Virus record (IMG/VR): IMGVR_UViG_3300049222_000252
Span: 1 to 58,995 of that record
DNA from: a virus
Lineage: Duplodnaviria; Caudoviricetes
Strand: one strand, 5' to 3'
Length of the DNA stretch: 58,995 nt
The translations under genes and the position numbers were made by a program. Below are positions 6,179 through 39,055 of this stretch, piece by piece (the first letter of the stretch is position 1; the number at the start of each line of letters is the position of its first letter). Under the pieces are notes generated by a model. It had not been told where the DNA came from. It saw only the letters and a program-made list of their open reading frames with translations, and did not search any database.

Positions 6179-9100
6179 ATGGCTAAATATAAGATTGGTA
6201 CGGATCTATATGATTTACCTGAAGAAAAAATAGAATCTTTTCTGTCTACATACCCTGACGCTGTAGAAGTTACAGACGAAATACAAGAACCTGTAACTGA
6301 GGGAAAGACAGACGATGTTGCAACAGTGGGTGCAGATGTAACATCGGAACCGGACACAGCATCCGAGACGCAAGGAACTCCAGAAATTACGGGATTCAAG
6401 TCGGCAGATACTTCTTTGGGTTCTCGATTTATAGATAGTGGTATAGAACTAGAAGGTTTTCAATTTGCTGATGGTATAGGTTTAGCTGGTGTTCAACTCC
6501 CTGAAGTTGTAGTCACTGCTAATCAATATAAAAATTTAGAACAGCAAATACAAAATGAAGGCGCAAAAAATATTACTGAACAACAAGAAGCTAGACAACA
6601 ACTTTTAGAAGAGCAAGTAGCTGAACTACCTAAAGCAGAACCTAGCGATACACCATTTACAAAACTTGTAAATTATTTATCTAAAAAAGGTAAAGAAGAT
6701 GTTGAAGAAACTGAAGATATAATAGCTGCTCAAAGTATTTATGGTAGCACTGTTAATTCATTAGTACAACTAAGCGGTGTTGATGATAGGGCGGATTATC
6801 TTTTAGCATCATTAATACAGCAAATACCTGATGATGTTTTTTTAAATGTATTAGGTGAAAACGCTGGTAAGAAAGCTATAAAATCTACCCAAGAAAACTT
6901 TTCAAGAGTAAATAAGCAAATTGATAATTTAAACAATTTAAACCTTCCAACTTTAGGATTTACTGACGTAGGACAAAAAGAAGGTTTTGATAAAGTAACC
7001 ACTGGTTTAGCTGCTACGTTTAATGGTTTAACAGCTTTTGGTACATCAGCGGTAACATCGCTAGCCACAGGCGGAGCTGGTTTAGCTAGCGATATGTTAT
7101 CTATGTCTATTAAAGATTTTAACGATACAAAAGCCGAGTCGTTAGGTATTACTGCAGAAGAATTATTTGCGTCTGGTCAAGGCGAGATATTAACGCCTTC
7201 AGCTATAGGTGCTGTTGGATATTCTTTAGAAAGATTTGGTATCAAAGGTGTTACTAAGTACATAAACAAAATGGGTAACAAGGCTTCTAAAAGTCTTTTT
7301 GCTTTTTTAAATACTGGTAATAGAGAAGGTTCAACTGAATGGGCTCAGTCAGGCTTAGAAGAGTTTAACAAAGCTATAGCTTCTGGGGTTTCAACAGACG
7401 AAGCAGCTAAAAAAGCTTGGAACTATATGACTTCTTCTGATGGTCTTGAAAATTACCTACAAGGATTTGCTGGTGGTTCAGGTTCTGGTGTTTTAGGTAG
7501 AGCAGCAAAGAATATAAGAAACAAAAATGAAAACGAAGCTTTATCTGAATCAATAAATAGATTAAACGAACTTGAAAATAGTAAGTATAGAAAAAATTTA
7601 AGCGCTGAAGATTTAAGCGTTATAAACACTGCTCAAGATGAAATAAGATTTAACTTAAGAGACATCGTTAATAAAAGCAACGAGCTTGTTGGTACTCTTA
7701 CTGATAAACAAATAGCAGATTTAAACGCTAACACAGATTTCATAACATCTAGTAGTGATCGTATAAACGAAATACAAAATTCTGAAGCTTATACAGATCA
7801 AGAAAAACAAGTATTAATAGATGCTGTTGATAAGCAAAGGGAAGCTGCTTCACAAAATATATATAATATAAGAAGTGAAGCTGATAAACTTCAAGCACAG
7901 ATTGAAACTGTAAAAGGTATAAGCGGTCTTGTTAAAGGTTTAAAAGTAGAAGAATCAGACACGGCTGCTGATGCTGAGAAATTTGCTGAAGATAACAATT
8001 TAGATATTAAATCATCTACATCTCAAGGGTATATACTTCAAAACCCTGAAACAGGCGAGCAAACAATTGTTATAAACAAAGAAACAGCATTAGATGAACA
8101 AGCTGTTAATGTTGCTGCTCACGAATTTTTACACGCTGTGTTATTTAATACTGTAAAAGACAGTCCACAAACTGCTATTAATTTAGGCAATGCTTTATTA
8201 TCTGAATTAAACAAAATAGATACAGCGCAGCTTAAAGATAGTAACTTCAAAAAACGCATGGAGCAATACAATGACGAATCGCGTGAAGTTAAAATGGAAG
8301 AAGCTCTTACTCTTTTTTCAGATGCTATAGCTACAGGTGATATTAAGTTTAATGAAAATGTATTTACTAAATTAGGTGATAGAGTTAGAAGAGTTACACG
8401 AAAATTTGGTGTTAATATTAAATTTAATACTGGCCGTGATGTATACAACTTCATAAAAGACTACAACAAAAGCATTGAAAAAGGTGATCTTAGTTTAGCT
8501 CAAGTACAAGCGGCTGCTAAAGGTGTTGAGGGTGAATTAGTAGCTCCAACAGAGCAACAAGCCGATGAATTAATAGTTAAAGAAGCTAAATCAGATGAAG
8601 CTTCGCAGCGTGTTCAAGAAATATACGAGCAGCAAGGCGAAGCAGGTACTTTCGACATTATAGAGCAGTTCAAACCTATTACAAGTAAACTTGTAGAGCG
8701 TAGAAAAGAAGCTCCTGGTTTTAACAGAGAAGATCTTACTTCTGAAATAGAAATAGGTAAGCGTGGTATTATAGATCTTATTAAAGAATATAAGCCAGAA
8801 TCAGGTGTGCCACTAGCGGCTTATATAAATAAGTTTTTACCAGCTCGAGCAATTGAAGCATCGAAAAGAGTTCTTGGTGAAGAGTTTACAGAAGACGTTA
8901 CTGAAGCAAGAGGTGTTGCGGCTGAAGAGGTTGTAACTGAAACCGCTATTAAACCAGAGGCAAAAGCTATTGATCCGTTTAGGATTATGCCTAATGTAAG
9001 AGAAGCCGCGGTAACAGAAGTACAAAAAAGCATTGCAGATAAAGACGTAGACGTTACAGAGGTTACATATAAGGAACTTAAAGACGTTGCGCCATACCAA

Positions 9101-12100
9101 ACAGTGGCAGACTTTTTTAACATACCTGTAAGTAGAATAAAAAATCCTAAAGATAATTTGCGTAAGTCAGATGACGTAGCAAATATACAGCGTTGGATAT
9201 TAAAAAACGAACCTACATTAAAGAATTTATTTACTGAAGCTAACAGAGATGTTATTGAAATAACTGAAGGCAATAGAGTTATACGTCAAGGTGGTGAACC
9301 AACTGCTATACCTAGAAACTTACTTAATAAGTTTTACACTAAAGGTGATCGTGTTGGTAATAACTTTCAATGGAAACTTAAACCTTACGATCGTACAACT
9401 TTCTTAGAAGCTGTAGGTATTAAAGACGGCAAGGTTGATCCTAACTTCACGCCACGCGCTGCTGAAGCTCAGACTATTAAAGGTATACTAGATATGTATA
9501 CTAGAAACTTAGGTAATGTAGCTGCGAGAGATATTATAGAAGGTCGTGAAGATATTGCACCGGCTGAAAAAGCTAGAGCAAAAGCTGAGGTTGCTAAGGG
9601 TAAACCACGTATTATGCTTAGTAAAGCTGCTAAGCAAGCTGCTGTAGACGAGATAAATCAGTTTATAGAAAAACAAGAATTTGTAAAAACTGAAGATGAA
9701 CTTGCTGCGGAAAATAAAGTTTGGAAATTTATAGCTAAGCAATTAGGAGTAAAACCTATTAGTTCTAAAAACCCAGATGATGTTGTAGAGTTTCAACAGT
9801 GGGTTAAAGATGTTCTTGCTCCTAGAATAGATAAATCTTTTTTTACAACTGGAACATTTGCAAACGCAGGTACTAGCGCTGCTAAAAGAAACTTTTATTT
9901 TACATCAGCGCAAGAATTAAATGATCTACTTGAAGGCGTACAGTTTGGACCTGAATCTAAAAACATACAGCAAGCTGTAAATAGAAAAACATATGTTACT
10001 GGTGGCGCTGAAGGTGTTGTTAGTAAAAAGTTTGTAAAAGAATTTAACAGTTCTGAGTTTAAAAAAGAACAACAAGAAAAACTTGACGGTTTAAAAGAAG
10101 TGTTTACGGTGTTTCAAGAATTAATGCAAGAAGATTCTAACAACACTAAATTTGTAATAGCTTTATTAACAAGCACTAGTCAAGGTATGGGGCATTTTGT
10201 TAGAACATCTGCACCTGTAAAGTTTTATTCTAAAAACATAGAAGGCGGTATAGTTGAAGAGCACACTATGCCAGCTAGTTTAGTAGCTAAATATTTATTT
10301 GGTCAAGCCGTGAACGGTACTATTGATCAAGGTTTCAAGCCTATAGAAAATAATTATTTTCAAGGAGCTTTAGGTAAAAATGATGATAAAAAGTTAAAAG
10401 GTAAAAAACCAGATGGTAAACCTTTTAACTACACATCAATGACTCCAGAGGGTTGGACGCTTAACGATAATATATGGGCTAGATATTTTAATGTAAATGT
10501 AGCTACAAATAATTTTGGTATAGATCCTAACAATATAGTTTTGTCTACGGGTAAAACTGTTTTTGAAACTTACGGTGTTAATAATTCTGGTGGTTTAGTA
10601 AGTAATAATTTTAACACTGAACAACAAAAAGCTGCTCAAATAAATAACAATAAAGTTCCTAAAAACTTTAGAGTTATGGCTAGTAAGTCTATGCCTAATA
10701 CACTAGATAAAATGTCTAATTTAGACGCACAAGCTGTGGAAGCTAATAAAGAATATTTTGATAGTGCTGATCTTGATAAAGGATTTAACGACTTACTAGA
10801 ACAAACAACTGGTATTGCATCGGAAAAAAGATACAAGCGTGTTAAAGCAGAAGTGGCAGGAGCTGCGCGTGGTAGAGCTTTAAGAGGTATACCTTATTCA
10901 GCGCAAGATCTTGTAGGTTTATTATATGAAACTCTTGGTAAAGGAAAACTAGGTGATGCGCAAATGGCATGGTGGACAGAAAACTTAATTAAACCTTATT
11001 CAAAAGCCATGAACGAAATCGATGCATCTAGAATTTCTATGATGCAAGATTATAGAGCTTTAAAGAAACAATTAAAAGTTGTTCCAAAAGATCTTCGTAA
11101 AAAAATACCAGGCGAGCCTTTTACTAGAGAGCAAGCTGTACGTGTTTATATATGGAACACGCAAGGTATGAAAGTTCCTGGCATTAGTGAAGCAGACTTA
11201 AAGGAGTTAACTAATTTTGTAAATAAAAACGAAGACTTAAAAACATTTGCAAATCAGCTTATATACATACAAAAAGGTGATCAATACGCTGCGCCAAAAG
11301 AAGGTTGGCCAGCTGGTAGTATAACAACTGATTTACTTGAAAATATAAACACAGTTAAGCGTGCTAAGTATTTAGAACAGTGGAAAGCTAATAAAGATAT
11401 TATATTTTCAGAAGAAAACTTAAACAAGCTTGAAGCTGCATATGGTAAAAAGTATCGTAAAGCTTTAGAAAATATGCTCGGTCGTATGGAAAGCGGTCGT
11501 AACAGAAACTTTTCAGATGATACTTTAACAGCTAGGTTTACAGACTGGTTGCAAGGTAGTATTGGTACTATAATGTTCTTTAACACTAGATCATCTTTAC
11601 TACAGACGTTATCTTCTATAAACTTTATAAACTTTACAGACAACAACCCGCTTGCCGCTGCTAAAGCTTTTGCAAACCAGAAACAATATTGGTCTGACTT
11701 TATGACGCTAATAAACTCTGACTTCCTTAAGGCTAGAAGATCAGGCTTACGTATGAACGTAAACGAAGCTGACATTGCTGACATGGCTAAGAAAGGTGGA
11801 CCCAAAGCTGTTATTGGTAAATTGCTACAGCTTGGTTTTGCACCAACACAAATAGCAGATAGTTTTGCTATTGCATCTGGTGGCGCTACTTTCTATCGCA
11901 ACAGAGTTAATACATACCAAAAACAAGGTATGTCAAAAGCTAAAGCTGAAGAAAAGGCATTTACAGACTTTAGAGAAAACGCTGAAGAGTCTCAGCAGTC
12001 AGCAAGGCCTGATAGAATATCTATGCAGCAAGCCGGTGGTTTAGGACGTCTTATATTAGCTTTCCAAAATACACCAGCTCAGTATGCTAGACTTATAGAT

Positions 12101-12784
12101 AAGTCTGTTAGAGATCTTAAGAATGGCAGAGGAGATGCTAAAACAAATATAAGCAAGATAGTATATTATTCTACAGTGCAAAACTTATTGTTTAACGCAT
12201 TGCAACAAGCTATGTTTGCTTTCGCTTTTGATGATGAAGAGCCTGAAGACAAGGAAAAGAAAGAAAAATATATTGATGTGGCCAACGGTATGATGGACTC
12301 GCTTCTTAGAGGTACTGGTCTTGCTGGTGGTATAGTGTCTGTAGCTAAAAATGCTATCATTAGAATAGTTGAAGAGTCTGAAAAAGATAGACCTAAGTTT
12401 GAAAAAGTTGGTGCTGACTTACTTAAGATAGCTCCACCTGTTTCATCTAAGCTTTCTAAAATAAATCAAGCAGCTAGATCGTATCAGTGGGATAAAAAAG
12501 AAATGCAAGAGAAAGGCTGGAGTTTAGATAACCCAGCTTACTTAGCGGCTGCAAATGTTATAGCAGCTACAACAAACGTACCATTAGATAGAATAGTTAA
12601 AAAAGGTAACAACGTTGCTAATGCAACTGACAGTGATTTAGAAACTTGGGAGAGATTAGCTTTGCTAGGCGGCTGGCAAGACTGGGAAATTGGTATTGAT
12701 GAAGAAAAACCCGCTAACAAACCTCAACCTAGAAAATCTAAATTTAAAAAGAGTGGATTTAAAAAGTCAGGATTTAAAAAGTAA
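6179..12784 (+). CDS. Giant polyvalent internal virion/cargo protein: zincin (HEFLH), ECF-sigma-like module, HNH-like module, conserved helical C-terminus
   Basis: 2201 aa. HEXXH at aa 648-652 with downstream EEA. Sigma region 2-like and HTH segments at aa ~805-990. Last gene of the ejection cluster. Confidence 0.75.
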   Translation: MAKYKIGTDLYDLPEEKIESFLSTYPDAVEVTDEIQEPVTEGKTDDVATVGADVTSEPDTASETQGTPEITGFKSADTSLGSRFIDSGIELEGFQFADGIGLAGVQLPEVVVTANQYKNLEQQIQNEGAKNITEQQEARQQLLEEQVAELPKAEPSDTPFTKLVNYLSKKGKEDVEETEDIIAAQSIYGSTVNSLVQLSGVDDRADYLLASLIQQIPDDVFLNVLGENAGKKAIKSTQENFSRVNKQIDNLNNLNLPTLGFTDVGQKEGFDKVTTGLAATFNGLTAFGTSAVTSLATGGAGLASDMLSMSIKDFNDTKAESLGITAEELFASGQGEILTPSAIGAVGYSLERFGIKGVTKYINKMGNKASKSLFAFLNTGNREGSTEWAQSGLEEFNKAIASGVSTDEAAKKAWNYMTSSDGLENYLQGFAGGSGSGVLGRAAKNIRNKNENEALSESINRLNELENSKYRKNLSAEDLSVINTAQDEIRFNLRDIVNKSNELVGTLTDKQIADLNANTDFITSSSDRINEIQNSEAYTDQEKQVLIDAVDKQREAASQNIYNIRSEADKLQAQIETVKGISGLVKGLKVEESDTAADAEKFAEDNNLDIKSSTSQGYILQNPETGEQTIVINKETALDEQAVNVAAHEFLHAVLFNTVKDSPQTAINLGNALLSELNKIDTAQLKDSNFKKRMEQYNDESREVKMEEALTLFSDAIATGDIKFNENVFTKLGDRVRRVTRKFGVNIKFNTGRDVYNFIKDYNKSIEKGDLSLAQVQAAAKGVEGELVAPTEQQADELIVKEAKSDEASQRVQEIYEQQGEAGTFDIIEQFKPITSKLVERRKEAPGFNREDLTSEIEIGKRGIIDLIKEYKPESGVPLAAYINKFLPARAIEASKRVLGEEFTEDVTEARGVAAEEVVTETAIKPEAKAIDPFRIMPNVREAAVTEVQKSIADKDVDVTEVTYKELKDVAPYQTVADFFNIPVSRIKNPKDNLRKSDDVANIQRWILKNEPTLKNLFTEANRDVIEITEGNRVIRQGGEPTAIPRNLLNKFYTKGDRVGNNFQWKLKPYDRTTFLEAVGIKDGKVDPNFTPRAAEAQTIKGILDMYTRNLGNVAARDIIEGREDIAPAEKARAKAEVAKGKPRIMLSKAAKQAAVDEINQFIEKQEFVKTEDELAAENKVWKFIAKQLGVKPISSKNPDDVVEFQQWVKDVLAPRIDKSFFTTGTFANAGTSAAKRNFYFTSAQELNDLLEGVQFGPESKNIQQAVNRKTYVTGGAEGVVSKKFVKEFNSSEFKKEQQEKLDGLKEVFTVFQELMQEDSNNTKFVIALLTSTSQGMGHFVRTSAPVKFYSKNIEGGIVEEHTMPASLVAKYLFGQAVNGTIDQGFKPIENNYFQGALGKNDDKKLKGKKPDGKPFNYTSMTPEGWTLNDNIWARYFNVNVATNNFGIDPNNIVLSTGKTVFETYGVNNSGGLVSNNFNTEQQKAAQINNNKVPKNFRVMASKSMPNTLDKMSNLDAQAVEANKEYFDSADLDKGFNDLLEQTTGIASEKRYKRVKAEVAGAARGRALRGIPYSAQDLVGLLYETLGKGKLGDAQMAWWTENLIKPYSKAMNEIDASRISMMQDYRALKKQLKVVPKDLRKKIPGEPFTREQAVRVYIWNTQGMKVPGISEADLKELTNFVNKNEDLKTFANQLIYIQKGDQYAAPKEGWPAGSITTDLLENINTVKRAKYLEQWKANKDIIFSEENLNKLEAAYGKKYRKALENMLGRMESGRNRNFSDDTLTARFTDWLQGSIGTIMFFNTRSSLLQTLSSINFINFTDNNPLAAAKAFANQKQYWSDFMTLINSDFLKARRSGLRMNVNEADIADMAKKGGPKAVIGKLLQLGFAPTQIADSFAIASGGATFYRNRVNTYQKQGMSKAKAEEKAFTDFRENAEESQQSARPDRISMQQAGGLGRLILAFQNTPAQYARLIDKSVRDLKNGRGDAKTNISKIVYYSTVQNLLFNALQQAMFAFAFDDEEPEDKEKKEKYIDVANGMMDSLLRGTGLAGGIVSVAKNAIIRIVEESEKDRPKFEKVGADLLKIAPPVSSKLSKINQAARSYQWDKKEMQEKGWSLDNPAYLAAANVIAATTNVPLDRIVKKGNNVANATDSDLETWERLALLGGWQDWEIGIDEEKPANKPQPRKSKFKKSGFKKSGFKK

Positions 12785-27900: not shown

Positions 27901-28505
27901 TAGTGAAATATTAATCCTATTTTTTTGTTTTTACTAAACCATTTTGTTGCCATCAAATCAATGTTAGAAGCATCCACATAACCGTTAGATAACAGATCGC
28001 TATTAGTAGAAAATATTTTGGTGTGTCTATGTTTTCTTTCATTTATCATATGTTTTTGTTTGCCAGAATCACTAAATATAATATCGTAATTATCTGGTAA
28101 TGAAGTATTTAACATCATATCAACCATATTAGTATATGAATAAAACTTAACACTAGGATTTTGTTTAGCAATTGTTATCCACTTTTGTAGATATGCTTTG
28201 CTGTAGTAATCGCCAGAATCATGTACACGTACATAGTCTGGTTTCTTACGTTTTATTTCAGTGTTCATTGCGTCTACAAATTCGTCTGTCTTGCTTAGCT
28301 CATAGCGCTTTTCGAAAGCAGGTTTTACATTGCTCCAGATATATGCGCCTTTTTTAGCATAACAAAACTTTACACAGTCTTTAGCCATTGGGCATGTTAG
28401 TTTACCACTGGCTGATTTGTACGCAGGTATACCAAAGTTAAAAACTCTAACACCAAGTTCTTTACTTGTTTTCTTTAATTTAGTATTTTGTGTTAGTAAA
28501 TTCAC
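27900..28505 (-). CDS. Gp88-like protein (radical-SAM-like Cys cluster)
   Basis: NTKLKK, TCPMAKDCVKFCYA, RVHDSGDY, YSYT. Confidence 0.75.
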   Translation of the reverse strand: MNLLTQNTKLKKTSKELGVRVFNFGIPAYKSASGKLTCPMAKDCVKFCYAKKGAYIWSNVKPAFEKRYELSKTDEFVDAMNTEIKRKKPDYVRVHDSGDYYSKAYLQKWITIAKQNPSVKFYSYTNMVDMMLNTSLPDNYDIIFSDSGKQKHMINERKHRHTKIFSTNSDLLSNGYVDASNIDLMATKWFSKNKKIGLIFH

Positions 28506-28699
28506 AAGTTATTATCTAGTATATTAGTAATTTTATCTTCCATATCTACTATATCTTTAGCAAGCTCAAGTATAGTATCGAGACCTCTTAACTCTTCTTT
28601 GCTAAGGTCTACGTCTACATTTGTGTCGAATAGTGTATCGACTACATCTTGCATATCAATCGAGGTATTTTGATACCTGCAATAGCTCATATTTGGCAT
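28502..28699 (-). CDS. Hypothetical early protein (MPNMSYCRYQNT)
   Basis: 65-aa ORF directly downstream of tRNA-like element 1. Confidence 0.7.
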   Translation of the reverse strand: MPNMSYCRYQNTSIDMQDVVDTLFDTNVDVDLSKEELRGLDTILELAKDIVDMEDKITNILDNNL

Positions 28700-28719: not shown

Positions 28720-28810
28720 AAGGCGTGGCAGGAATCGAACCTGCCTAACATAGTGTAGGTTGCTCTTATTTGCATTTATCCTCAAACACACTACTGACCA
28801 TTTCACGCCT
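28720..28810 (-). ncRNA. tRNA-like element 1 (no D-stem; internal stem with 31-nt insert)
   Basis: AGGCGTG/CACGCCT acceptor stem, AAATGGTCA loop, GTAGTGT/ACACTAT stem, GCAGG-TTCGATT-CCTGC T-arm; intergenic. Confidence 0.8.
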
Positions 28811-29841: not shown

Positions 29842-30067
29842 AGTCTAATTCTATTAGTTTAAATATATAATTCCAAGTTTCTAGCTCACGCTTTGATGCG
29901 TCGAGACATAATTCTAGCTCATGAAGCGTTACAGCGCCTGTATTTTTGCGCTCAATATCATATTCTAACTTTCTAATCTCAATTTGTTTTGCATTGATTT
30001 TAGAAAAAGCTTTATCATGTGCTTTTAATTTAATTACTTCCTTCATAGTTGTCAAAGATTTCGTCAC
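29783..30067 (-). CDS. Hypothetical early protein
   Basis: Coiled-coil ORF; start probably MKEVIK. Confidence 0.55.
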   Translation of the reverse strand: MTKSLTTMKEVIKLKAHDKAFSKINAKQIEIRKLEYDIERKNTGAVTLHELELCLDASKRELETWNYIFKLIELDYGKYDYADEILGSRGNYDA

Positions 30068-30284
30068 CCCAAATGATTGAGATAGCTGATTGGTCTACAT
30101 AGCTCGTGTCAGAGAACATATGAACTCTTCTCATATCATCGATAGTTAGATCACCAATGAAGTATGTACTTTCAAGTTTGGCAATTACTTGCCTAACAGA
30201 TGAGCTGTATTTGCCTTCGTTTTCTTTGAGCTTAGCTCTAACTCTAGGCTTTAGCCTATTGTAAAGTGTAGGTATTTTAGTCAT
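30030..30284 (-). CDS. Hypothetical early protein
   Basis: 84-aa ORF directly downstream of tRNA-like element 2. Confidence 0.65.
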   Translation of the reverse strand: MTKIPTLYNRLKPRVRAKLKENEGKYSSSVRQVIAKLESTYFIGDLTIDDMRRVHMFSDTSYVDQSAISIIWGDEIFDNYEGSN

Positions 30285-30300
30285 ATTTATTTAATTTTAG

Positions 30301-30387
30301 TGGACGTGGCAGGAATCGAACCTGCGTTTGAAGCATTTGGACTCGGTAACCCGTTATTTATTCGCTTCATCTAACCATTTCACGCCC
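30301..30387 (-). ncRNA. tRNA-like element 2, tmRNA-TLD-like with G3.U70 and A73
   Basis: GGGCGTG/CACGTCC-A acceptor, AAATGGTTAGA loop, TGAAGC/GCTTCA stem, AAC-GCAGG-TTCGATT-CCTGC T-arm. Confidence 0.82.
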
Positions 30388-30390
30388 ATA

Positions 30391-30554
30391 AGGCAGCAGT
30401 TGCGGACTGGTAGTTAACTAGTATTGTCATTTATCCGCTCTTTCTGTTTTATTGAAGGTATGACTGAGACGCTCTAAGGAATACTCGTTCGATGAGTCTT
30501 ACACTCCGTTTCGTCTTAACCCTTTCAACTAACGTGACCAGTATGCCGCCGCCT
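30391..30554 (-). ncRNA. ~164-nt structured intergenic RNA
   Basis: Nested stems AGGCGGCGG/CTGCTGCCT, ACTGGT/ACCAGT, AGTTGA/TTAACT, AGACG/CGTCT, ACTC/GAGT; no track ORF. Confidence 0.6.
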
Positions 30555-30741
30555 ATTTACGTCGCCAAGACCTGTGTACACTTGCAGACACTTCTTGGCT
30601 GACGATTTGAATTGTATTGCCTGTTTTGTGCTCAATGATAGGTATATAGCTGTAAGTTTTAGCTGTTGAACAATCAACACAAGTGTTATATCCTAGTTTT
30701 TGTCGCACTGGGTGCACATCATTTCCGCATCTACAATACAT
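30553..30741 (-). CDS. Small zinc-finger protein (DksA/TraR-type Cys spacing)
   Basis: CRCG...R..LGYNTCVDCS. Confidence 0.7.
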   Translation of the reverse strand: MYCRCGNDVHPVRQKLGYNTCVDCSTAKTYSYIPIIEHKTGNTIQIVSQEVSASVHRSWRRK

Positions 30742-30756
30742 AATTTGTTTATTTTA

Positions 30757-30793
30757 TATTATTATCCAACGGTGTTCGTATTTTGTTTGTAAA
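30757..30793 (-). promoter_or_regulatory. Early promoter motif copy P5
   Basis: TTTACAAACAAAATAC-GAACACCGT-TGGATAATA upstream of ATG 30741. Confidence 0.8.
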
Positions 30794-31597: not shown

Positions 31598-31613
31598 AGT
31601 TTGTAATTGTTTA

Positions 31614-31650
31614 TTATATTATCCAGTAAGTGTCGTATTTTATTTGTAAT
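31614..31650 (-). promoter_or_regulatory. Early promoter motif copy P4
   Basis: ATTACAAATAAAATAC-GACACTTAC-TGGATAATA. Confidence 0.8.
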
Positions 31651-32436: not shown

Positions 32437-32451
32437 AGTATTATTATTTTA

Positions 32452-32488
32452 TATTATTATCCAGTTAGTTTCGTATTTTATTTGTAAA
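32452..32488 (-). promoter_or_regulatory. Early promoter motif copy P3
   Basis: TTTACAAATAAAATAC-GAAACTAAC-TGGATAATA. Confidence 0.8.
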
Positions 32489-32769: not shown

Positions 32770-32810
32770 AAGTCACGGTGAGAATCGAACTCACATTAAC
32801 CATTGTGACT
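32770..32810 (-). ncRNA. tRNA-like element 3 (41-nt minihelix: acceptor stem + GG loop + T-arm)
   Basis: AGTCAC-AATGGTTAAT-GTGAG-TTCGATT-CTCAC-C-GTGACT-T. Confidence 0.75.
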
Positions 32811-33132: not shown

Positions 33133-33163
33133 AGTTATGAATTTAAGTATTTATATTTGTTTA

Positions 33164-33200
33164 TTATATTATCCAGTTGTTACTGTATTTTGTTTGTAAA
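33164..33200 (-). promoter_or_regulatory. Early promoter motif copy P2
   Basis: TTTACAAACAAAATAC-AGTAACAAC-TGGATAATA. Confidence 0.8.
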
Positions 33201-33290
33201 GAGTGTAGTTTTATTTATTACTAGTTTTTGTTAGGTAGTTATTACACTACACCTCTTTGTGTATAACTAATTAGTATTTGTTAGTTACAT

Positions 33291-33327
33291 TATTATTATC
33301 CAAATGGTGTTGTATTATGTCTGTAAA
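33291..33327 (-). promoter_or_regulatory. Early promoter motif copy P1
   Basis: TTTACAGACATAATAC-AACACCATT-TGGATAATA. Confidence 0.78.
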
Positions 33328-35838: not shown

Positions 35839-37392
35839 ATGTCAGACGCAATAGTAAAAAACCTTAACTTCGGTGAGCAAGCCCGAGCTGAAGTATTTGA
35901 AGGTATTGAAAAGTTAACACAAGCCGTTAGCTCTACACTCGGGGCTAGCGGTAAGTGTGTAATGCTTGAAGATGGGCAAGGTAAACCTGTTATTACAAAA
36001 GACGGTGTTACAGTAGCAGATAGTATTATTCTTTTAGATCCTGTAGAAAACATGGGTGCTACGCTTTTAAAAGAAGCCGCGCGAAAAACCGTAAAAGAAG
36101 CAGGCGACGGAACTACTACAGCTACAGTGTTAGCACATGCTATATTACAGCACGCTAACAACAGAGATGATGTTAATACACGTGATATGAAAAACGGTAT
36201 TGATTTAGCTGTAAAGAAAGTTGTAACGTATCTAGAAAACGCTTCTGTAGAAGTTACAGATGATATGTTAGATCATGTAGCAACGATTAGTTGCAATAAC
36301 GACGTTGAGCTTGGTAAGATCATAGGCGATGCGTTTAGATCTGTAGACAGAACAGGTGTTGTAATGATGGAAGCAACTGAAGACAATGAAACATCAGTTG
36401 AAATAGTAGAAGGAATTGAGTACGACAAAGGACTTGTTAATTCACATTTTATTACAAGTAAAACCAAACGTGCTGCCGAACTAGAAAACCCTCTAGTATT
36501 AATTGTAGAATCACCAGTTGAGAATATACGTAAAATACAAAGTGTACTCGAGTTTGTGATTAAAAACAACAAAGCGCTTTTAATTATTGCCGACTGTGAG
36601 CAAGCTGTCACATCAGCTCTTGCGATGAATAAAGTAAAAGGCAATATTAAAGTAAATGTAATCAATGCGCCTACATATGGCGTAAGTAAAAAAGATACGC
36701 TTTCAGATTTAGCATTGCTAACCGGAGCTACTGTAATCAATGAAGATCTTGGTGATGATATGGATTTAATCCAACCAGAATACTTAGGTCAAGCAGTTAA
36801 AAGTGTAACAACAGACACTGAAACAATAATTCAAGTTGATACAGATAACCCTAAAATCGACGAGCTTATATCTAGTTTAAAAGAACAATTAGTTAAAACA
36901 AAAAATCCTAATAAAGTTACTAAACTAGAAAAAAGACTTGCTCGCGTCTCTGGTAAAGTTGCTATTGTAAAAGTTGGGGCAAATTCTGAAATTGAATTAA
37001 AAGAAAAACAAGATAGAGTCGAAGACGCTATTTGTGCTACTAAAGCCGCTGTTAAAGAAGGTATTGTATCTGGTGGTGGTATTGCTCTTTTGAATGCTTC
37101 ACAAAATATAGAAGCAAGTAGTAAAGCCGAGCAGGTGTTACTTGATTCTATTCAAGCACCGTTCAAAACTATACTGAGCAATGCTGGTATTGAATCTTAC
37201 AAGATGCCTGATGCTGTGGGTGAAGGTTTAAATGTGGTTACAGGAAATATGGTAAATATGATACAGTCCGGTATCATAGACCCACTGCTCGTAACTAAGA
37301 GCGCTCTTCGGAACGCGGCTTCTGTAGCTACAACAATATTATCTACCGATTGTGTAATTAATAATCTTAGAATTAATGAAGGCAATAGGTAG
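35839..37392 (+). CDS. groEL: Group I chaperonin GroEL (no GGM tail)
   Basis: ITKDGVTVA, AGDGTTTATVLA, DRVEDAICATKAA, GIIDP. Confidence 0.97.
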   Translation: MSDAIVKNLNFGEQARAEVFEGIEKLTQAVSSTLGASGKCVMLEDGQGKPVITKDGVTVADSIILLDPVENMGATLLKEAARKTVKEAGDGTTTATVLAHAILQHANNRDDVNTRDMKNGIDLAVKKVVTYLENASVEVTDDMLDHVATISCNNDVELGKIIGDAFRSVDRTGVVMMEATEDNETSVEIVEGIEYDKGLVNSHFITSKTKRAAELENPLVLIVESPVENIRKIQSVLEFVIKNNKALLIIADCEQAVTSALAMNKVKGNIKVNVINAPTYGVSKKDTLSDLALLTGATVINEDLGDDMDLIQPEYLGQAVKSVTTDTETIIQVDTDNPKIDELISSLKEQLVKTKNPNKVTKLEKRLARVSGKVAIVKVGANSEIELKEKQDRVEDAICATKAAVKEGIVSGGGIALLNASQNIEASSKAEQVLLDSIQAPFKTILSNAGIESYKMPDAVGEGLNVVTGNMVNMIQSGIIDPLLVTKSALRNAASVATTILSTDCVINNLRINEGNR

Positions 37393-38702: not shown

Positions 38703-39055
38703 TGAAGTATTTTAATTATGAAGAATTTGACTCGCCTGATGTACAGGGCTCAGGTCAAATGATGAGTAAAAAACTACTTGACATATTAGACAAAGTAAGA
38801 AAAAGTTTTGGTAAACCTATTGTTATAAACTCTGGGTATCGAACGCTTGCGCATAACGAATCTGTAGGCGGGACTGAAAATTCTTCTCATTTAAAAGGGT
38901 TAGCGGTTGATATTGCGTGTAATAATAGTATTGATAGATATACACTAACAAAGCTTTTAATGTTTCACGGTGTTAATAGGTTTGGTATAGCTAAAACATT
39001 TATACATGTTGATATGGATCCTGATAAATCACCTAATGTAATCTGGACGTACTAA
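38702..39055 (+). CDS. Peptidase M15A-type endolysin
   Basis: INSGYRT..HN..VGG..NSSHLKGLAVDI...FIHVD. Confidence 0.92.
   Translation: MKYFNYEEFDSPDVQGSGQMMSKKLLDILDKVRKSFGKPIVINSGYRTLAHNESVGGTENSSHLKGLAVDIACNNSIDRYTLTKLLMFHGVNRFGIAKTFIHVDMDPDKSPNVIWTY

What the first reader, a model, noticed from the sequence alone, without database searches (positions are those of the whole stretch)
30301..30387. Element 2 looks like a tmRNA tRNA-like domain without an mRNA domain
Seen: GGGCGTG-AAATGGTTAGA-TGAAGC-(29 nt)-GCTTCA-AAC-GCAGGTTCGATTCCTGC-CACGTCC-A, giving G1-C72, G2-C71, G3.U70 and A73. Known: these are the AlaRS identity elements. A stemless D-loop followed by helix 2a and a 3-nt linker into the T-arm is tmRNA TLD architecture. 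Tag-less tmRNAs are known from jakobid mitochondria. Inference: an alanylatable mini-tmRNA that could titrate SmpB or alter ribosome rescue. Elements 1 and 3 lack G3.U70, so their functions may differ.
Basis: partly seen in the sequence, partly recalled or inferred. Interest (0 to 1): 0.75.

Follow-up and report, generated by a model that had tools for sequence, protein, structure and literature searches.

The report
Phage tag-less mini-tmRNA gene
This marine phage carries a small RNA gene that copies only the alanine-accepting, tRNA-like end of the bacterial ribosome-rescue RNA (tmRNA), a kind of molecule so far reported from one phage and here found to be a large family.

Summary
On the minus strand at 30387..30301 there is a 7-bp acceptor stem with G3.U70 and A73, a stemless D-loop, a 6-bp helix, a 29-nt insert, an AAC linker and a canonical T-arm. 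It is not chance. Rfam's tmRNA model matches both ends at 35.5 bits, E 1e-11, below the gathering score of 47. The tRNA model matches only the T-arm (14.5 bits). ARAGORN calls nothing. Two IMG/VR pattern scans gave a large family with near-invariant ends, a covarying helix 2 and a hypervariable middle. Among 78 unique non-tRNA relatives with U70, position 3 is G in 76 and A in 2. Four of 13 relatives' loci pass Rfam's tmRNA cut-off although only about 80-105 nt long. The published 'TLD only' tmRNA of mycobacteriophage DS6A is recognised by my family model at 41.8 bits. The phage has no SmpB gene and no integrase. Best reading: a CDS-less tmRNA homologue, charged by host AlaRS, that acts on host SmpB or trans-translation. 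Charging, SmpB binding and the effect are untested. It is a new member of a known kind. In 16 of 81 loci, including this window, a conserved unexplained structured RNA sits directly 5' of it.

The parts
30298..30387 (-). Element 2: CDS-less tmRNA-like RNA (tRNA-like domain only), 87 nt to A73 plus the encoded CUA tail
   Evidence: Sequence read; fold; Rfam RF00023 35.5 bits, E 1e-11; family model R1 74.1 bits
30381..30387 (-). Acceptor stem, 5' strand (GGGCGUG)
   Evidence: Pairs with 30302-30308. All 7 pairs are standard in 32 of 32 aligned relatives; pair 4:69 covaries CG 25, GC 5, UA 2
30370..30380 (-). Stemless D-loop with the GG dinucleotide
   Evidence: Aligned to the tmRNA D-loop by Rfam. 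GG lies within 13 nt of the acceptor in 77 of 78 unique relatives
30329..30369 (-). Helix 2 (30364-30369 with 30329-30334) closing a 29-nt insert (30335-30363)
   Evidence: Every one of 32 relatives forms a helix here from a different sequence. All 5 modelled pairs show changes on both sides. The same insert recurs, with one base changed, in L027 and L016
30326..30328 (-). 3-nt linker AAC
   Evidence: NAC in 72 of 78 unique relatives. AC also stands in the Rfam tmRNA consensus before the T stem
30309..30325 (-). T-arm (5 bp, 7-nt loop UUCGAUU)
   Evidence: All 5 pairs are standard in 32 of 32 relatives; 3 pairs show changes on both sides
30301..30308 (-). Acceptor 3' strand (CACGUCC) and discriminator A73
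   Evidence: G3.U70 is kept in 76 of 78 unique relatives. The same 3' half ends 84 of 121 bacterial matches that ARAGORN calls tRNA-Ala
30388..30553 (-). Upstream structured RNA domain (three-way junction), function unknown, ending 3-4 nt before G1
   Evidence: A 28-nt core with 0-2 changes in 11 loci, always 20-25 nt before G1. RNAalifold gives 25 pairs, 7 with compensatory changes. Model R2 finds it in 16 of 81 sources. No Rfam match
30553..30741 (-). 62-aa four-cysteine protein gene, the conserved upstream neighbour
   Evidence: Upstream on the same strand in 19 of 33 loci and found in 35 of 106 further loci. The 4 Cys are invariant. No Pfam or PHROG family
30030..30284 (-). 84-aa protein gene that starts 16 nt after A73, the conserved downstream neighbour
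   Evidence: A homologue lies within 1.5 kb in 22 of 33 loci. No Pfam or PHROG family
30743..30792 (-). One of five copies of a ~50-nt repeat before minus-strand genes (candidate early promoter of the operon that holds element 2)
   Evidence: the repeat finder family D1/D2. That it is a promoter is inference
28720..28810 (-). Element 1: paralogue with the same D-loop and T-arm but A1-U72, G3-C70 and U73
   Evidence: R1 64.3 bits. RF00005 19.4 bits, below its cut-off of 29
32770..32810 (-). Element 3: acceptor/T-arm minihelix (6-bp acceptor, 10-nt loop, T-arm), with no helix 2
   Evidence: R1 20.9 bits, E 0.0015. Relatives with covarying acceptor stems lie in L018, L028, L012 and L054

Best explanation
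Element 2 is a working phage gene for a CDS-less tmRNA homologue that keeps only the tRNA-like domain (TLD). SHOWN: the fold, its homology to tmRNA TLDs, its family, the conservation of the AlaRS identity set, the lack of a tag frame, and the absence of a phage SmpB gene. INFERRED, step 1: it is transcribed inside the minus-strand operon of small genes, because there is no promoter-like site just upstream and no terminator-like site after it. INFERRED, step 2: it is cut out by host tRNA-processing enzymes (RNase P at G1, 3' trimming after A73) and receives CCA from the host CCA-adding enzyme, because CUA is encoded. INFERRED, step 3: it is charged with alanine by host AlaRS through G3.U70 and A73. 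INFERRED, step 4: it binds host SmpB and EF-Tu. Without a resume codon it cannot template a tag. It would therefore compete with host tmRNA for SmpB and for stalled ribosomes, blocking or re-routing trans-translation during infection. My odds: TLD-only tmRNA-type RNA gene 0.85; alanylated 0.65; acts through SmpB or trans-translation 0.45.
For: The architecture was read directly and is reproduced by the MFE fold. Rfam tmRNA aligns both ends at 35.5 bits, E 1e-11. The tRNA model gives only a local T-arm hit of 14.5 bits. ARAGORN finds neither a tRNA nor a tmRNA. The family model separates 37 hits at 58.6 bits or more from ordinary tRNAs at 33.7 bits or less, and gives 69 further hits at E <= 1e-6 in 100 loci. 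Covariation: 91.9% of cells are paired against a shuffled mean of 76.5 (0 of 500 shuffles reach it); slid controls pair 40-54%. G3.U70 stands in 29 of 32 relatives and in 76 of 78 unique non-tRNA relatives. The same acceptor 3' half belongs to ARAGORN-called tRNA-Ala genes in 84 of 121 bacterial matches. Relatives pass the tmRNA gathering score in 4 of 13 loci, and 10 of 13 match at E <= 0.01. Nine phage tmRNAs with canonical tags share the same 3' end. The DS6A 'TLD only' tmRNA has the same architecture and the same CUA tail; it scores 43.2 bits with RF00023 and 41.8 bits with R1. The literature (passages read) says a DS6A-like molecule inhibits endogenous tmRNA in E. coli, perhaps by titrating SmpB. 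The 33-nt 3' part is 100% identical in L008, L012, L023 and L024, although their neighbouring 62-aa genes are 70-81% identical in DNA. The phage has no SmpB gene.
Against: The Rfam score is below the gathering score (35.5 against 47). In the control, sub-threshold tmRNA hits also appear in 4 archaea that have no tmRNA. The mt-tmRNA model does not match. The acceptor could equally derive from tRNA-Ala, since 84 of 121 bacterial matches are tRNA-Ala, so the G3.U70 evidence does not tell tmRNA ancestry from tRNA-Ala ancestry. According to the passage read, a TLD-only molecule inhibits tmRNA whether or not it can be charged; simple SmpB titration therefore does not explain why G3.U70 is kept so strictly. 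The hypervariable middle with subtype-specific conservation is not explained by titration either. There is no evidence of expression, processing, CCA addition, charging or SmpB binding. Both collection scans stopped at, or were shaped by, fixed sequence patterns, so the sample is biased towards the window's own motifs.
Confidence: 0.55

Rival explanations
1. It is an alanine-accepting tRNA-Ala/TLD mimic that acts outside trans-translation. The constant acceptor/T-arm would be a handle for host enzymes (AlaRS, CCA-adding enzyme, EF-Tu). The hypervariable middle would be a specificity module that binds a phage or host protein or RNA, or a decoy for a host defence factor that senses or cuts tRNA-like RNAs.
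For: The acceptor 3' half is identical to that of many bacterial tRNA-Ala genes (84 of 121 matches). The middle ranges from about 20 to over 100 nt and differs completely between loci, yet it is kept within subtypes and recurs as shuffled hairpin modules. The same operon holds two more tRNA-like RNAs with other acceptor identities. Strict retention of G3.U70 is not needed for mere SmpB titration (passage read).
Against: The stemless D-loop, the NAC linker and helix 2 fit the tmRNA model, not the tRNA model. Relatives pass Rfam's tmRNA cut-off. No partner protein is identified; the conserved neighbours have no known family.
Confidence: 0.2
2. It is mainly a processing signal. The tRNA-like fold recruits RNase P and 3' processing enzymes to cut the polycistronic early transcript between the 62-aa and 84-aa genes, or to stabilise the flanking mRNAs. 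The released RNA would have no function of its own.
For: It lies inside a same-strand operon 16 nt before the next start codon, with no promoter-like site directly upstream and no terminator-like site. Three tRNA-like elements punctuate the same gene cluster. The position between the two genes is syntenic in many loci.
Against: A processing signal needs the fold, not the AlaRS identity set. Yet G3 is kept opposite U70 in 76 of 78 unique relatives where A would pair better, and A73 and the D-loop GG are kept. The 3' half is more conserved than the neighbouring coding DNA.
Confidence: 0.1
3. It is a decayed tRNA gene, or a fragment of a host tmRNA or tRNA gene left by integration (an attP-type remnant).
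For: ARAGORN and the Rfam gathering thresholds call nothing here. Phages often carry 3' pieces of ssrA as attachment sites (stated in a passage of PMC9004378).
Against: Both acceptor strands are present and pair. Helix 2 and the T stem covary across dozens of loci. The phage has no integrase match. The window has no ordinary tRNA genes from which a pseudogene could stem.
Confidence: 0.03

Closest known systems
TLD-only (CDS-less) tmRNA of Mycobacterium phage DS6A (Hudson, Lau and Williams 2014, PMC4131195; Nawrocki, Petrov and Williams 2025, PMC11915505; passages read)
   Same: Phage-encoded and about 83-87 nt. A 7-bp acceptor with G3.U70 and A73, followed by encoded CUA. A stemless D-loop with GG. 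A short helix 2 closed by a small hairpin. A 3-nt linker ending in AC. A T-arm. No tag frame. Sub-threshold Rfam tmRNA score (43.2 bits against 35.5 here). The family model R1 finds it at 41.8 bits.
   Different: DS6A is a temperate actinobacterial phage with an integrase. This is a marine phage whose primase/helicase is closest to those of Flavobacteriia phages, with no integrase match. The acceptor sequence differs (GGGGCCG against GGGCGUG). Here the element belongs to a large family with a hypervariable middle, has two tRNA-like paralogues in the same operon, and in some loci has a conserved upstream RNA domain.
Bacterial one-piece tmRNA (Rfam RF00023)
   Same: Acceptor with G3.U70 and A73, stemless D-loop, helix 2, AC linker, T-arm. 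Both ends align to the model. Phage tmRNAs with canonical tags share the same 3' end.
   Different: No pseudoknots, no resume codon, no tag reading frame and no helix 5; 326 of 374 model positions are deleted. The score is below the gathering score.
Mitochondrial tmRNA of jakobids (Rfam RF02544) and the ~65-bp plastid forms
   Same: CDS-less tRNA-like remnants of tmRNA (passage of PMC11915505).
   Different: The RF02544 model gives no match at the element. Those forms are organellar rather than viral.
Bacterial tRNA-Ala
   Same: The 7-bp acceptor stem, A73 and a very similar T-arm occur in tRNA-Ala genes of several phyla (84 of 121 matches).
   Different: No D stem, no anticodon arm and no anticodon. 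RF00005 gives only a local T-arm hit of 14.5 bits. ARAGORN calls no tRNA.

Membership tests
tmRNA (RF00023) | Acceptor stem with G3.U70 and discriminator A73 (AlaRS identity) | tested here: met
   Read. Kept in 29 of 32 and 76 of 78 relatives
tmRNA (RF00023) | tRNA-like domain: stemless D-loop with GG, helix 2 in place of the anticodon arm, short AC linker, T-arm | tested here: met
   Rfam alignment. Helix 2 in 32 of 32 constrained folds. GG in 77 of 78 and NAC in 72 of 78
tmRNA (RF00023) | mRNA-like domain with resume codon, tag reading frame and stop codon | tested here: not met
   ARAGORN finds no tmRNA or tag. The insert is 29 nt. Relatives' middles share no frame; 6 of 78 have no stop in any frame. 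The upstream domain's candidate frame is not conserved
tmRNA (RF00023) | Pseudoknots PK1-PK4 | tested here: not met
   326 of 374 model positions are deleted; there is no room in 29 nt
tmRNA (RF00023) | Score at or above Rfam's gathering score (47 bits) | tested here: not met
   35.5 bits. Relatives in 4 of 13 loci pass at 48.8-71.7 bits
tmRNA (RF00023) | Binds SmpB and is charged with alanine | not testable with these tools
   No RNA-protein or charging tool. No phage SmpB gene, so the partner would be the host's
CDS-less / TLD-only tmRNA (DS6A type) | Complete TLD of about 65-90 nt, helix 2 closed by a short insert, no tag frame | tested here: met
   DS6A folded for comparison. R1 finds DS6A at 41.8 bits
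CDS-less / TLD-only tmRNA (DS6A type) | Inhibits endogenous tmRNA when expressed | not testable with these tools
   Reported for the DS6A-like molecule in passages of PMC4131195 and PMC11915505, both citing Mao et al. 2009, which I did not read
mt-tmRNA (RF02544) | Match to the family model | tested here: not met
   No match at the element. The only hit, 14.6 bits, lies at 38888-38940
tRNA (RF00005), tRNA-Ala | Cloverleaf with D stem and an anticodon arm with a 7-nt loop | tested here: not met
   RF00005 gives only model positions 43-63 at 14.5 bits. ARAGORN finds 0 genes

The most novel reading that the evidence does not exclude
The element is one part of a phage RNA toolkit that reprograms ribosome rescue or tRNA-dependent processes. 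The constant alanine-accepting handle carries a fast-evolving, modular middle domain that gives target specificity. In about a fifth of loci, including this window, a highly conserved three-way-junction RNA is fused 3-4 nt upstream of G1. That domain may sense a ligand or protein and gate the release or charging of the mini-tmRNA. Two further tRNA-like RNAs with other acceptor identities (a U73 type and a bare acceptor/T-arm minihelix) would work alongside it.
Probability: 0.12. Interest if true: 0.85.

Novelty: new member of a known kind. Interest (0 to 1): 0.55.

Why it matters
What CDS-less tmRNAs do is an open question. They are on record from jakobid mitochondria, two plastids and a single phage, DS6A (passage of PMC11915505). 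This element shows the form is not a one-off in phages. It belongs to a family of dozens to hundreds of members in seawater phages. Its AlaRS identity set is strictly kept, its middle is hypervariable, and its gene neighbourhood is conserved. That comparative material lets charging, SmpB binding and effects on trans-translation be tested on many natural variants. It also argues that charging matters, which simple SmpB titration does not predict. For annotation, ARAGORN and Rfam at default thresholds miss these genes. The searches behind the statement that the family is not in print were made, plus the passages read. They cover open-access papers only, and supplements were not seen.

Tried and rejected
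1. Known RNA families. The Rfam gathering scan of the window gave 0 matches and ARAGORN gave 0 genes. The E-value scan gave only the tmRNA hit, plus chance-level hits (tRNA-Sec on element 1, Plastid-ycf2 on the opposite strand, SNORD25, tmRNA_permuted at 16.3 bits).

2. Cultured relatives. blastn of 5 kb around the element, of the element itself and of a tagged phage tmRNA against 50,697 phage records found only T-arm-sized pieces. tblastn of the 62-aa protein found nothing.

3. Host by tmRNA or tRNA likeness. It returned mostly tRNA-Ala genes of phyla unrelated to the likely host. The two family members in bacterial bins (L080, a 1737-bp contig; L165, a 609-bp contig) are too short to name a host.

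4. Expression. All 24 runs found are kept as contigs. I laid four RNA-library runs. Contigs cover the conserved 3' part (30281-30330) and the stretch 30393-30614, but nothing covers 30342-30375. No loose end shows CCA in place of CUA. Contigs cannot show ends, strand or level, and DNA may be present in RNA libraries. I draw no conclusion on transcription, processing or CCA addition.

5. Upstream domain as a displaced mRNA-like domain. A five-codon frame (four codons and a stop) follows an AUAAAU motif like the one before the resume codon of two tagged phage tmRNAs. The frame is lost in L250, L040 and L255. ARAGORN and the permuted-tmRNA model give nothing there. Rejected for now.

6. Promoter reading of the conserved 28-nt core. 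It occurs once in the window, and no sigma-70-like site is called there. Its flanks covary as RNA helices, which favours an RNA role.

7. attP remnant: no integrase match.

8. Neighbour proteins: no Pfam or PHROG family for the 62-aa and 84-aa proteins. I did not fold them or run the large protein searches.

10. Rows dropped. Of the 53 loci, 32 passed my filter on acceptor positions 1-3. The other 21 were mostly ordinary long-arm tRNAs or unclear, and were not aligned. L029 and L031 were left out of alignment A1 as near-duplicates. In one search, 29 of 130 matches had no 5' acceptor within 140 nt (some are full-length tmRNAs), and 5 of 83 unique sequences called tRNA by ARAGORN were removed. 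In one search, 100 of the 106 new loci were searched. In one search, 81 chosen loci were searched.

Full report
WHAT IS THERE. The window is a whole IMG/VR virus record of 58,995 bp, estimated 92% complete. The element lies on the minus strand. Read 5' to 3' from 30387 to 30301 it has these parts:
- a 7-bp acceptor stem (GGGCGUG with CACGUCC), giving G1-C72, G2-C71 and G3.U70;
- an 11-nt D-loop without a stem;
- a 6-bp helix enclosing 29 nt;
- the linker AAC;
- a 5-bp T stem with the loop UUCGAUU;
- A73, followed by CUA rather than CCA.
The coordinates and all parts match the finding. The unconstrained fold gives this structure at -29.2 kcal/mol, z -3.2, with 0 of 200 shuffles as good.

DETECTORS. 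ARAGORN reports no tRNA or tmRNA in the window. Rfam at gathering thresholds reports nothing. With E-value thresholds the only strong match is tmRNA RF00023. It scores 35.5 bits against a gathering score of 47, with E 1e-11 on 5 kb and 1.2e-10 on the whole window. Both ends align and 326 of 374 model positions are deleted. In the control genomes this model also gives sub-threshold hits in archaea, so the hit alone is not proof. The tRNA model RF00005 sees only the T-arm (14.5 bits, model positions 43-63). The mitochondrial tmRNA model RF02544 does not match.

RELATIVES. A pattern scan of IMG/VR, anchored on the D-loop and the T-loop, gave 53 loci. Of these, 32 carry an element with the same ends. 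The remaining 21 were mostly ordinary long-arm tRNAs.

I aligned 30 of the 32 with the window's elements 2 and 1 (alignment A1). All 7 acceptor pairs and all 5 T-stem pairs are standard in 32 of 32 rows. Pair 3:70 is G.U in 29 rows, G-C in 2 and A-U in 1. Pair 4:69 covaries (CG 25, GC 5, UA 2). For the whole structure 91.9% of cells are paired against a shuffled mean of 76.5 (0 of 500 shuffles reach it). The covariation score is 0.412 against 0.130, and slid controls pair only 40-54%.

Constrained folds show that every member has a helix directly after the D-loop, built from a different sequence each time. A variable middle of about 25-60 nt follows. A covariance model of A1 (R1) separates 37 hits at 58.6 bits or more from ordinary tRNAs at 33.7 bits or less. 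It also found copies that the pattern had missed, in L046, L016 and L054, all with G3.U70.

It yielded 78 unique non-tRNA elements of 57-131 nt. Position 3 is G in 76 and A in 2, although A would give a Watson-Crick pair. Other counts on these 78:
- GG in the D-loop in 77;
- an NAC linker in 72;
- the tail after A73 is CUA in 53, and CCA in 3.
R1 hits 69 places at E <= 1e-6 in 100 of the 106 new loci.

tmRNA OR tRNA-Ala? Of 121 matches, ARAGORN tRNA-Ala. So this exact acceptor is a genuine alanine acceptor, but G3.U70 cannot tell tmRNA descent from tRNA-Ala descent.

Four things point to tmRNA:
- The stemless D-loop, helix 2 and AC linker fit the tmRNA model and not the tRNA model.
- Relatives in the same model family pass Rfam's tmRNA gathering score in 4 of 13 loci (71.7, 64.7, 62.7 and 48.8 bits) although they are only about 80-105 nt long. 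Ten of the 13 match at E <= 0.01.
- Nine phage tmRNAs with canonical tags, several ending in ALAA or LLAA, share the same 3' end, some with the same CUA tail.
- The one published phage example behaves the same way. The 'TLD only' tmRNA of mycobacteriophage DS6A (passages of PMC4131195, and PMC11915505) lies at 28478-28560 of JN698994. It scores 43.2 bits with RF00023 and 41.8 bits with R1. It folds into the same architecture, with G3.U70, A73 and a CUA tail.

CONTEXT. The element sits in a minus-strand cluster of small genes. A 62-aa four-cysteine protein gene (30741-30553) lies upstream. An 84-aa gene (30284-30030) starts 16 nt after A73. This order is syntenic. A 62-aa homologue lies upstream on the same strand in 19 of 33 loci, and an 84-aa homologue lies nearby in 22 of 33. 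The 62-aa protein is found again in 35 of 106 further loci. Neither protein has a Pfam or PHROG family.

A ~50-nt repeat occurs five times before minus-strand genes, once at 30743-30792. No sigma-70-like site lies directly before the element and no terminator-like site after it. I therefore infer co-transcription and release by processing.

The 33-nt 3' part is 100% identical in L008, L012, L023 and L024, whose neighbouring 62-aa genes are only 70-81% identical in DNA. This argues for strong purifying selection on the RNA.

The phage encodes ribonucleotide reductase, primase/helicase, DNA ligase, an exonuclease and a GroEL-like chaperonin. It has no SmpB match and no integrase match. Its primase/helicase is closest to those of Cellulophaga, Tenacibaculum, Riemerella and Flavobacterium phages, at 43% identity at best. 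A marine Flavobacteriia host is therefore likely, but this is inference. The DNA is held by seawater and marine metagenome runs.

MECHANISM. Shown: fold, family, covariation, the conserved AlaRS identity set, tmRNA-type TLD features, absence of a tag frame, absence of phage SmpB.

Inferred from established knowledge (recalled, not from a call): RNase P and 3' processing free tRNA-like RNAs; the CCA-adding enzyme completes ends that lack CCA; AlaRS charges any acceptor helix with G3.U70; SmpB binds the TLD's D-loop side; and EF-Tu delivers Ala-tmRNA to stalled ribosomes.

Without a resume codon the molecule cannot template a tag. It would therefore compete with host tmRNA for SmpB and for stalled ribosomes. 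Two papers state that a DS6A-like TLD-only RNA inhibits endogenous tmRNA in E. coli, perhaps by titrating SmpB, whether or not it can be charged (passages read). They cite Mao et al. 2009, which I did not read.

That last point cuts against pure titration here, because G3.U70 is kept in 76 of 78 relatives. I therefore think charging matters. One possibility is entry into the A site, transfer of the nascent chain, and release without a degradation tag. I cannot test this.

RIVALS. There are three:
- An alanine-accepting mimic working outside trans-translation, with the hypervariable middle as a specificity module (0.2).
- A mere processing signal (0.1). This is weakened by the conservation of identity nucleotides that processing does not need.
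- A pseudogene or attP remnant (0.03). This is contradicted by the covariation and by the lack of an integrase.

THE UPSTREAM DOMAIN. Between the 62-aa gene and G1 lie 165 nt (30553-30388) that are not a simple spacer. A 28-nt core is kept with 0-2 changes in 11 loci, always 20-25 nt before G1, while the mini-tmRNA middles downstream differ completely. RNAalifold on 10 sequences gives a three-way junction with a closing helix, a variable hairpin, and a helix closing the conserved loop. Seven of its 25 pairs show compensatory changes. A model of it (R2) finds 16 of 81 sources. Rfam has no match. A short frame in its conserved loop is not kept in three variants. I leave it unexplained. It does not change the reading of element 2, because most family members lack it.

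NOVELTY AND SCORE. CDS-less tmRNAs are known from jakobid mitochondria, two plastids and phage DS6A. Element 2 is a new member of that kind. What is new is the scale and the form: a large family in seawater phages, a hypervariable middle, paralogues with other acceptor identities, and an optional upstream domain. My literature searches and the passages read found no description of this family. They cover open-access text only, without supplements. Interest 0.55.

Noticed in passing
window 30388-30553 (-): A conserved three-way-junction RNA lies directly 5' of the mini-tmRNA. It has a near-invariant 28-nt loop core and covarying helices. It is present in 16 of 81 related loci and has no Rfam match. 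Its function is unknown.
   Followed up: partly
window 28720-28810 (-): Element 1 has the same D-loop and T-arm as element 2 but A1-U72, G3-C70 and U73, so it lacks an alanine identity set. Relatives lie in L046, L054 and L242. It sits between the 88-aa and 65-aa genes.
   Followed up: partly
window about 32770-32810 (-): Element 3 is a bare acceptor/T-arm minihelix: a 6-bp acceptor, a 10-nt loop containing UGG, and a T-arm, with no helix 2. Relatives in L018, L028, L012 and L054 have covarying acceptor stems and an ACUAA-type tail. In L255 a similar minihelix follows a copy of the upstream domain at about 100 nt.
   Followed up: partly
window 30743-30792, 31600-31649, 32438-32487, 33150-33199, 33277-33326: Five copies of a ~50-nt AT-rich repeat stand before minus-strand small genes. 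They are candidate phage early promoters.
   Followed up: no
window 30553-30741 (-): A 62-aa protein with four invariant cysteines (CxC...CxxC) and a conserved basic C-terminus is always the gene upstream of the mini-tmRNA. It has no Pfam or PHROG family and no tblastn match in cultured phages.
   Followed up: partly
L179:8140-8387 (-) and the matching place in L197: Compact phage tmRNAs of about 244 nt carry canonical tags (ARAGORN: AKQNQFALAA and ANKNQFALAA). They have the same acceptor 3' strand and CUA tail as the CDS-less family, but lie in phages without the window's neighbour genes.
   Followed up: partly
L067, L068, L154, L162, L164, L171, L071 (genome contigs): Short TLD-like elements with the same acceptor but other middles occur on contigs binned to Acidobacteriota, Paceibacterota, Peribacteria and Actinomycetes. 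They may be prophage-borne CDS-less tmRNAs.
   Followed up: no
L031:2267-2343 (+): A type II hammerhead ribozyme match above Rfam's gathering score (45.8 bits against 37) lies on a contig that also carries a TLD-only tmRNA.
   Followed up: no
window 35839-37392 (+) and 6179-12784 (+): A GroEL-like chaperonin gene (PHROG 5725, E 6e-131), and a 2201-aa ORF with no PHROG match.
   Followed up: no
L014:2370-2443 (+), L005:537-610 (-): In some relatives an ordinary tRNA gene lies next to the mini-tmRNA; in L014 it starts 2 nt after the Rfam tmRNA match to the mini-tmRNA ends (2262-2368). The window itself has no ordinary tRNA gene.
   Followed up: no
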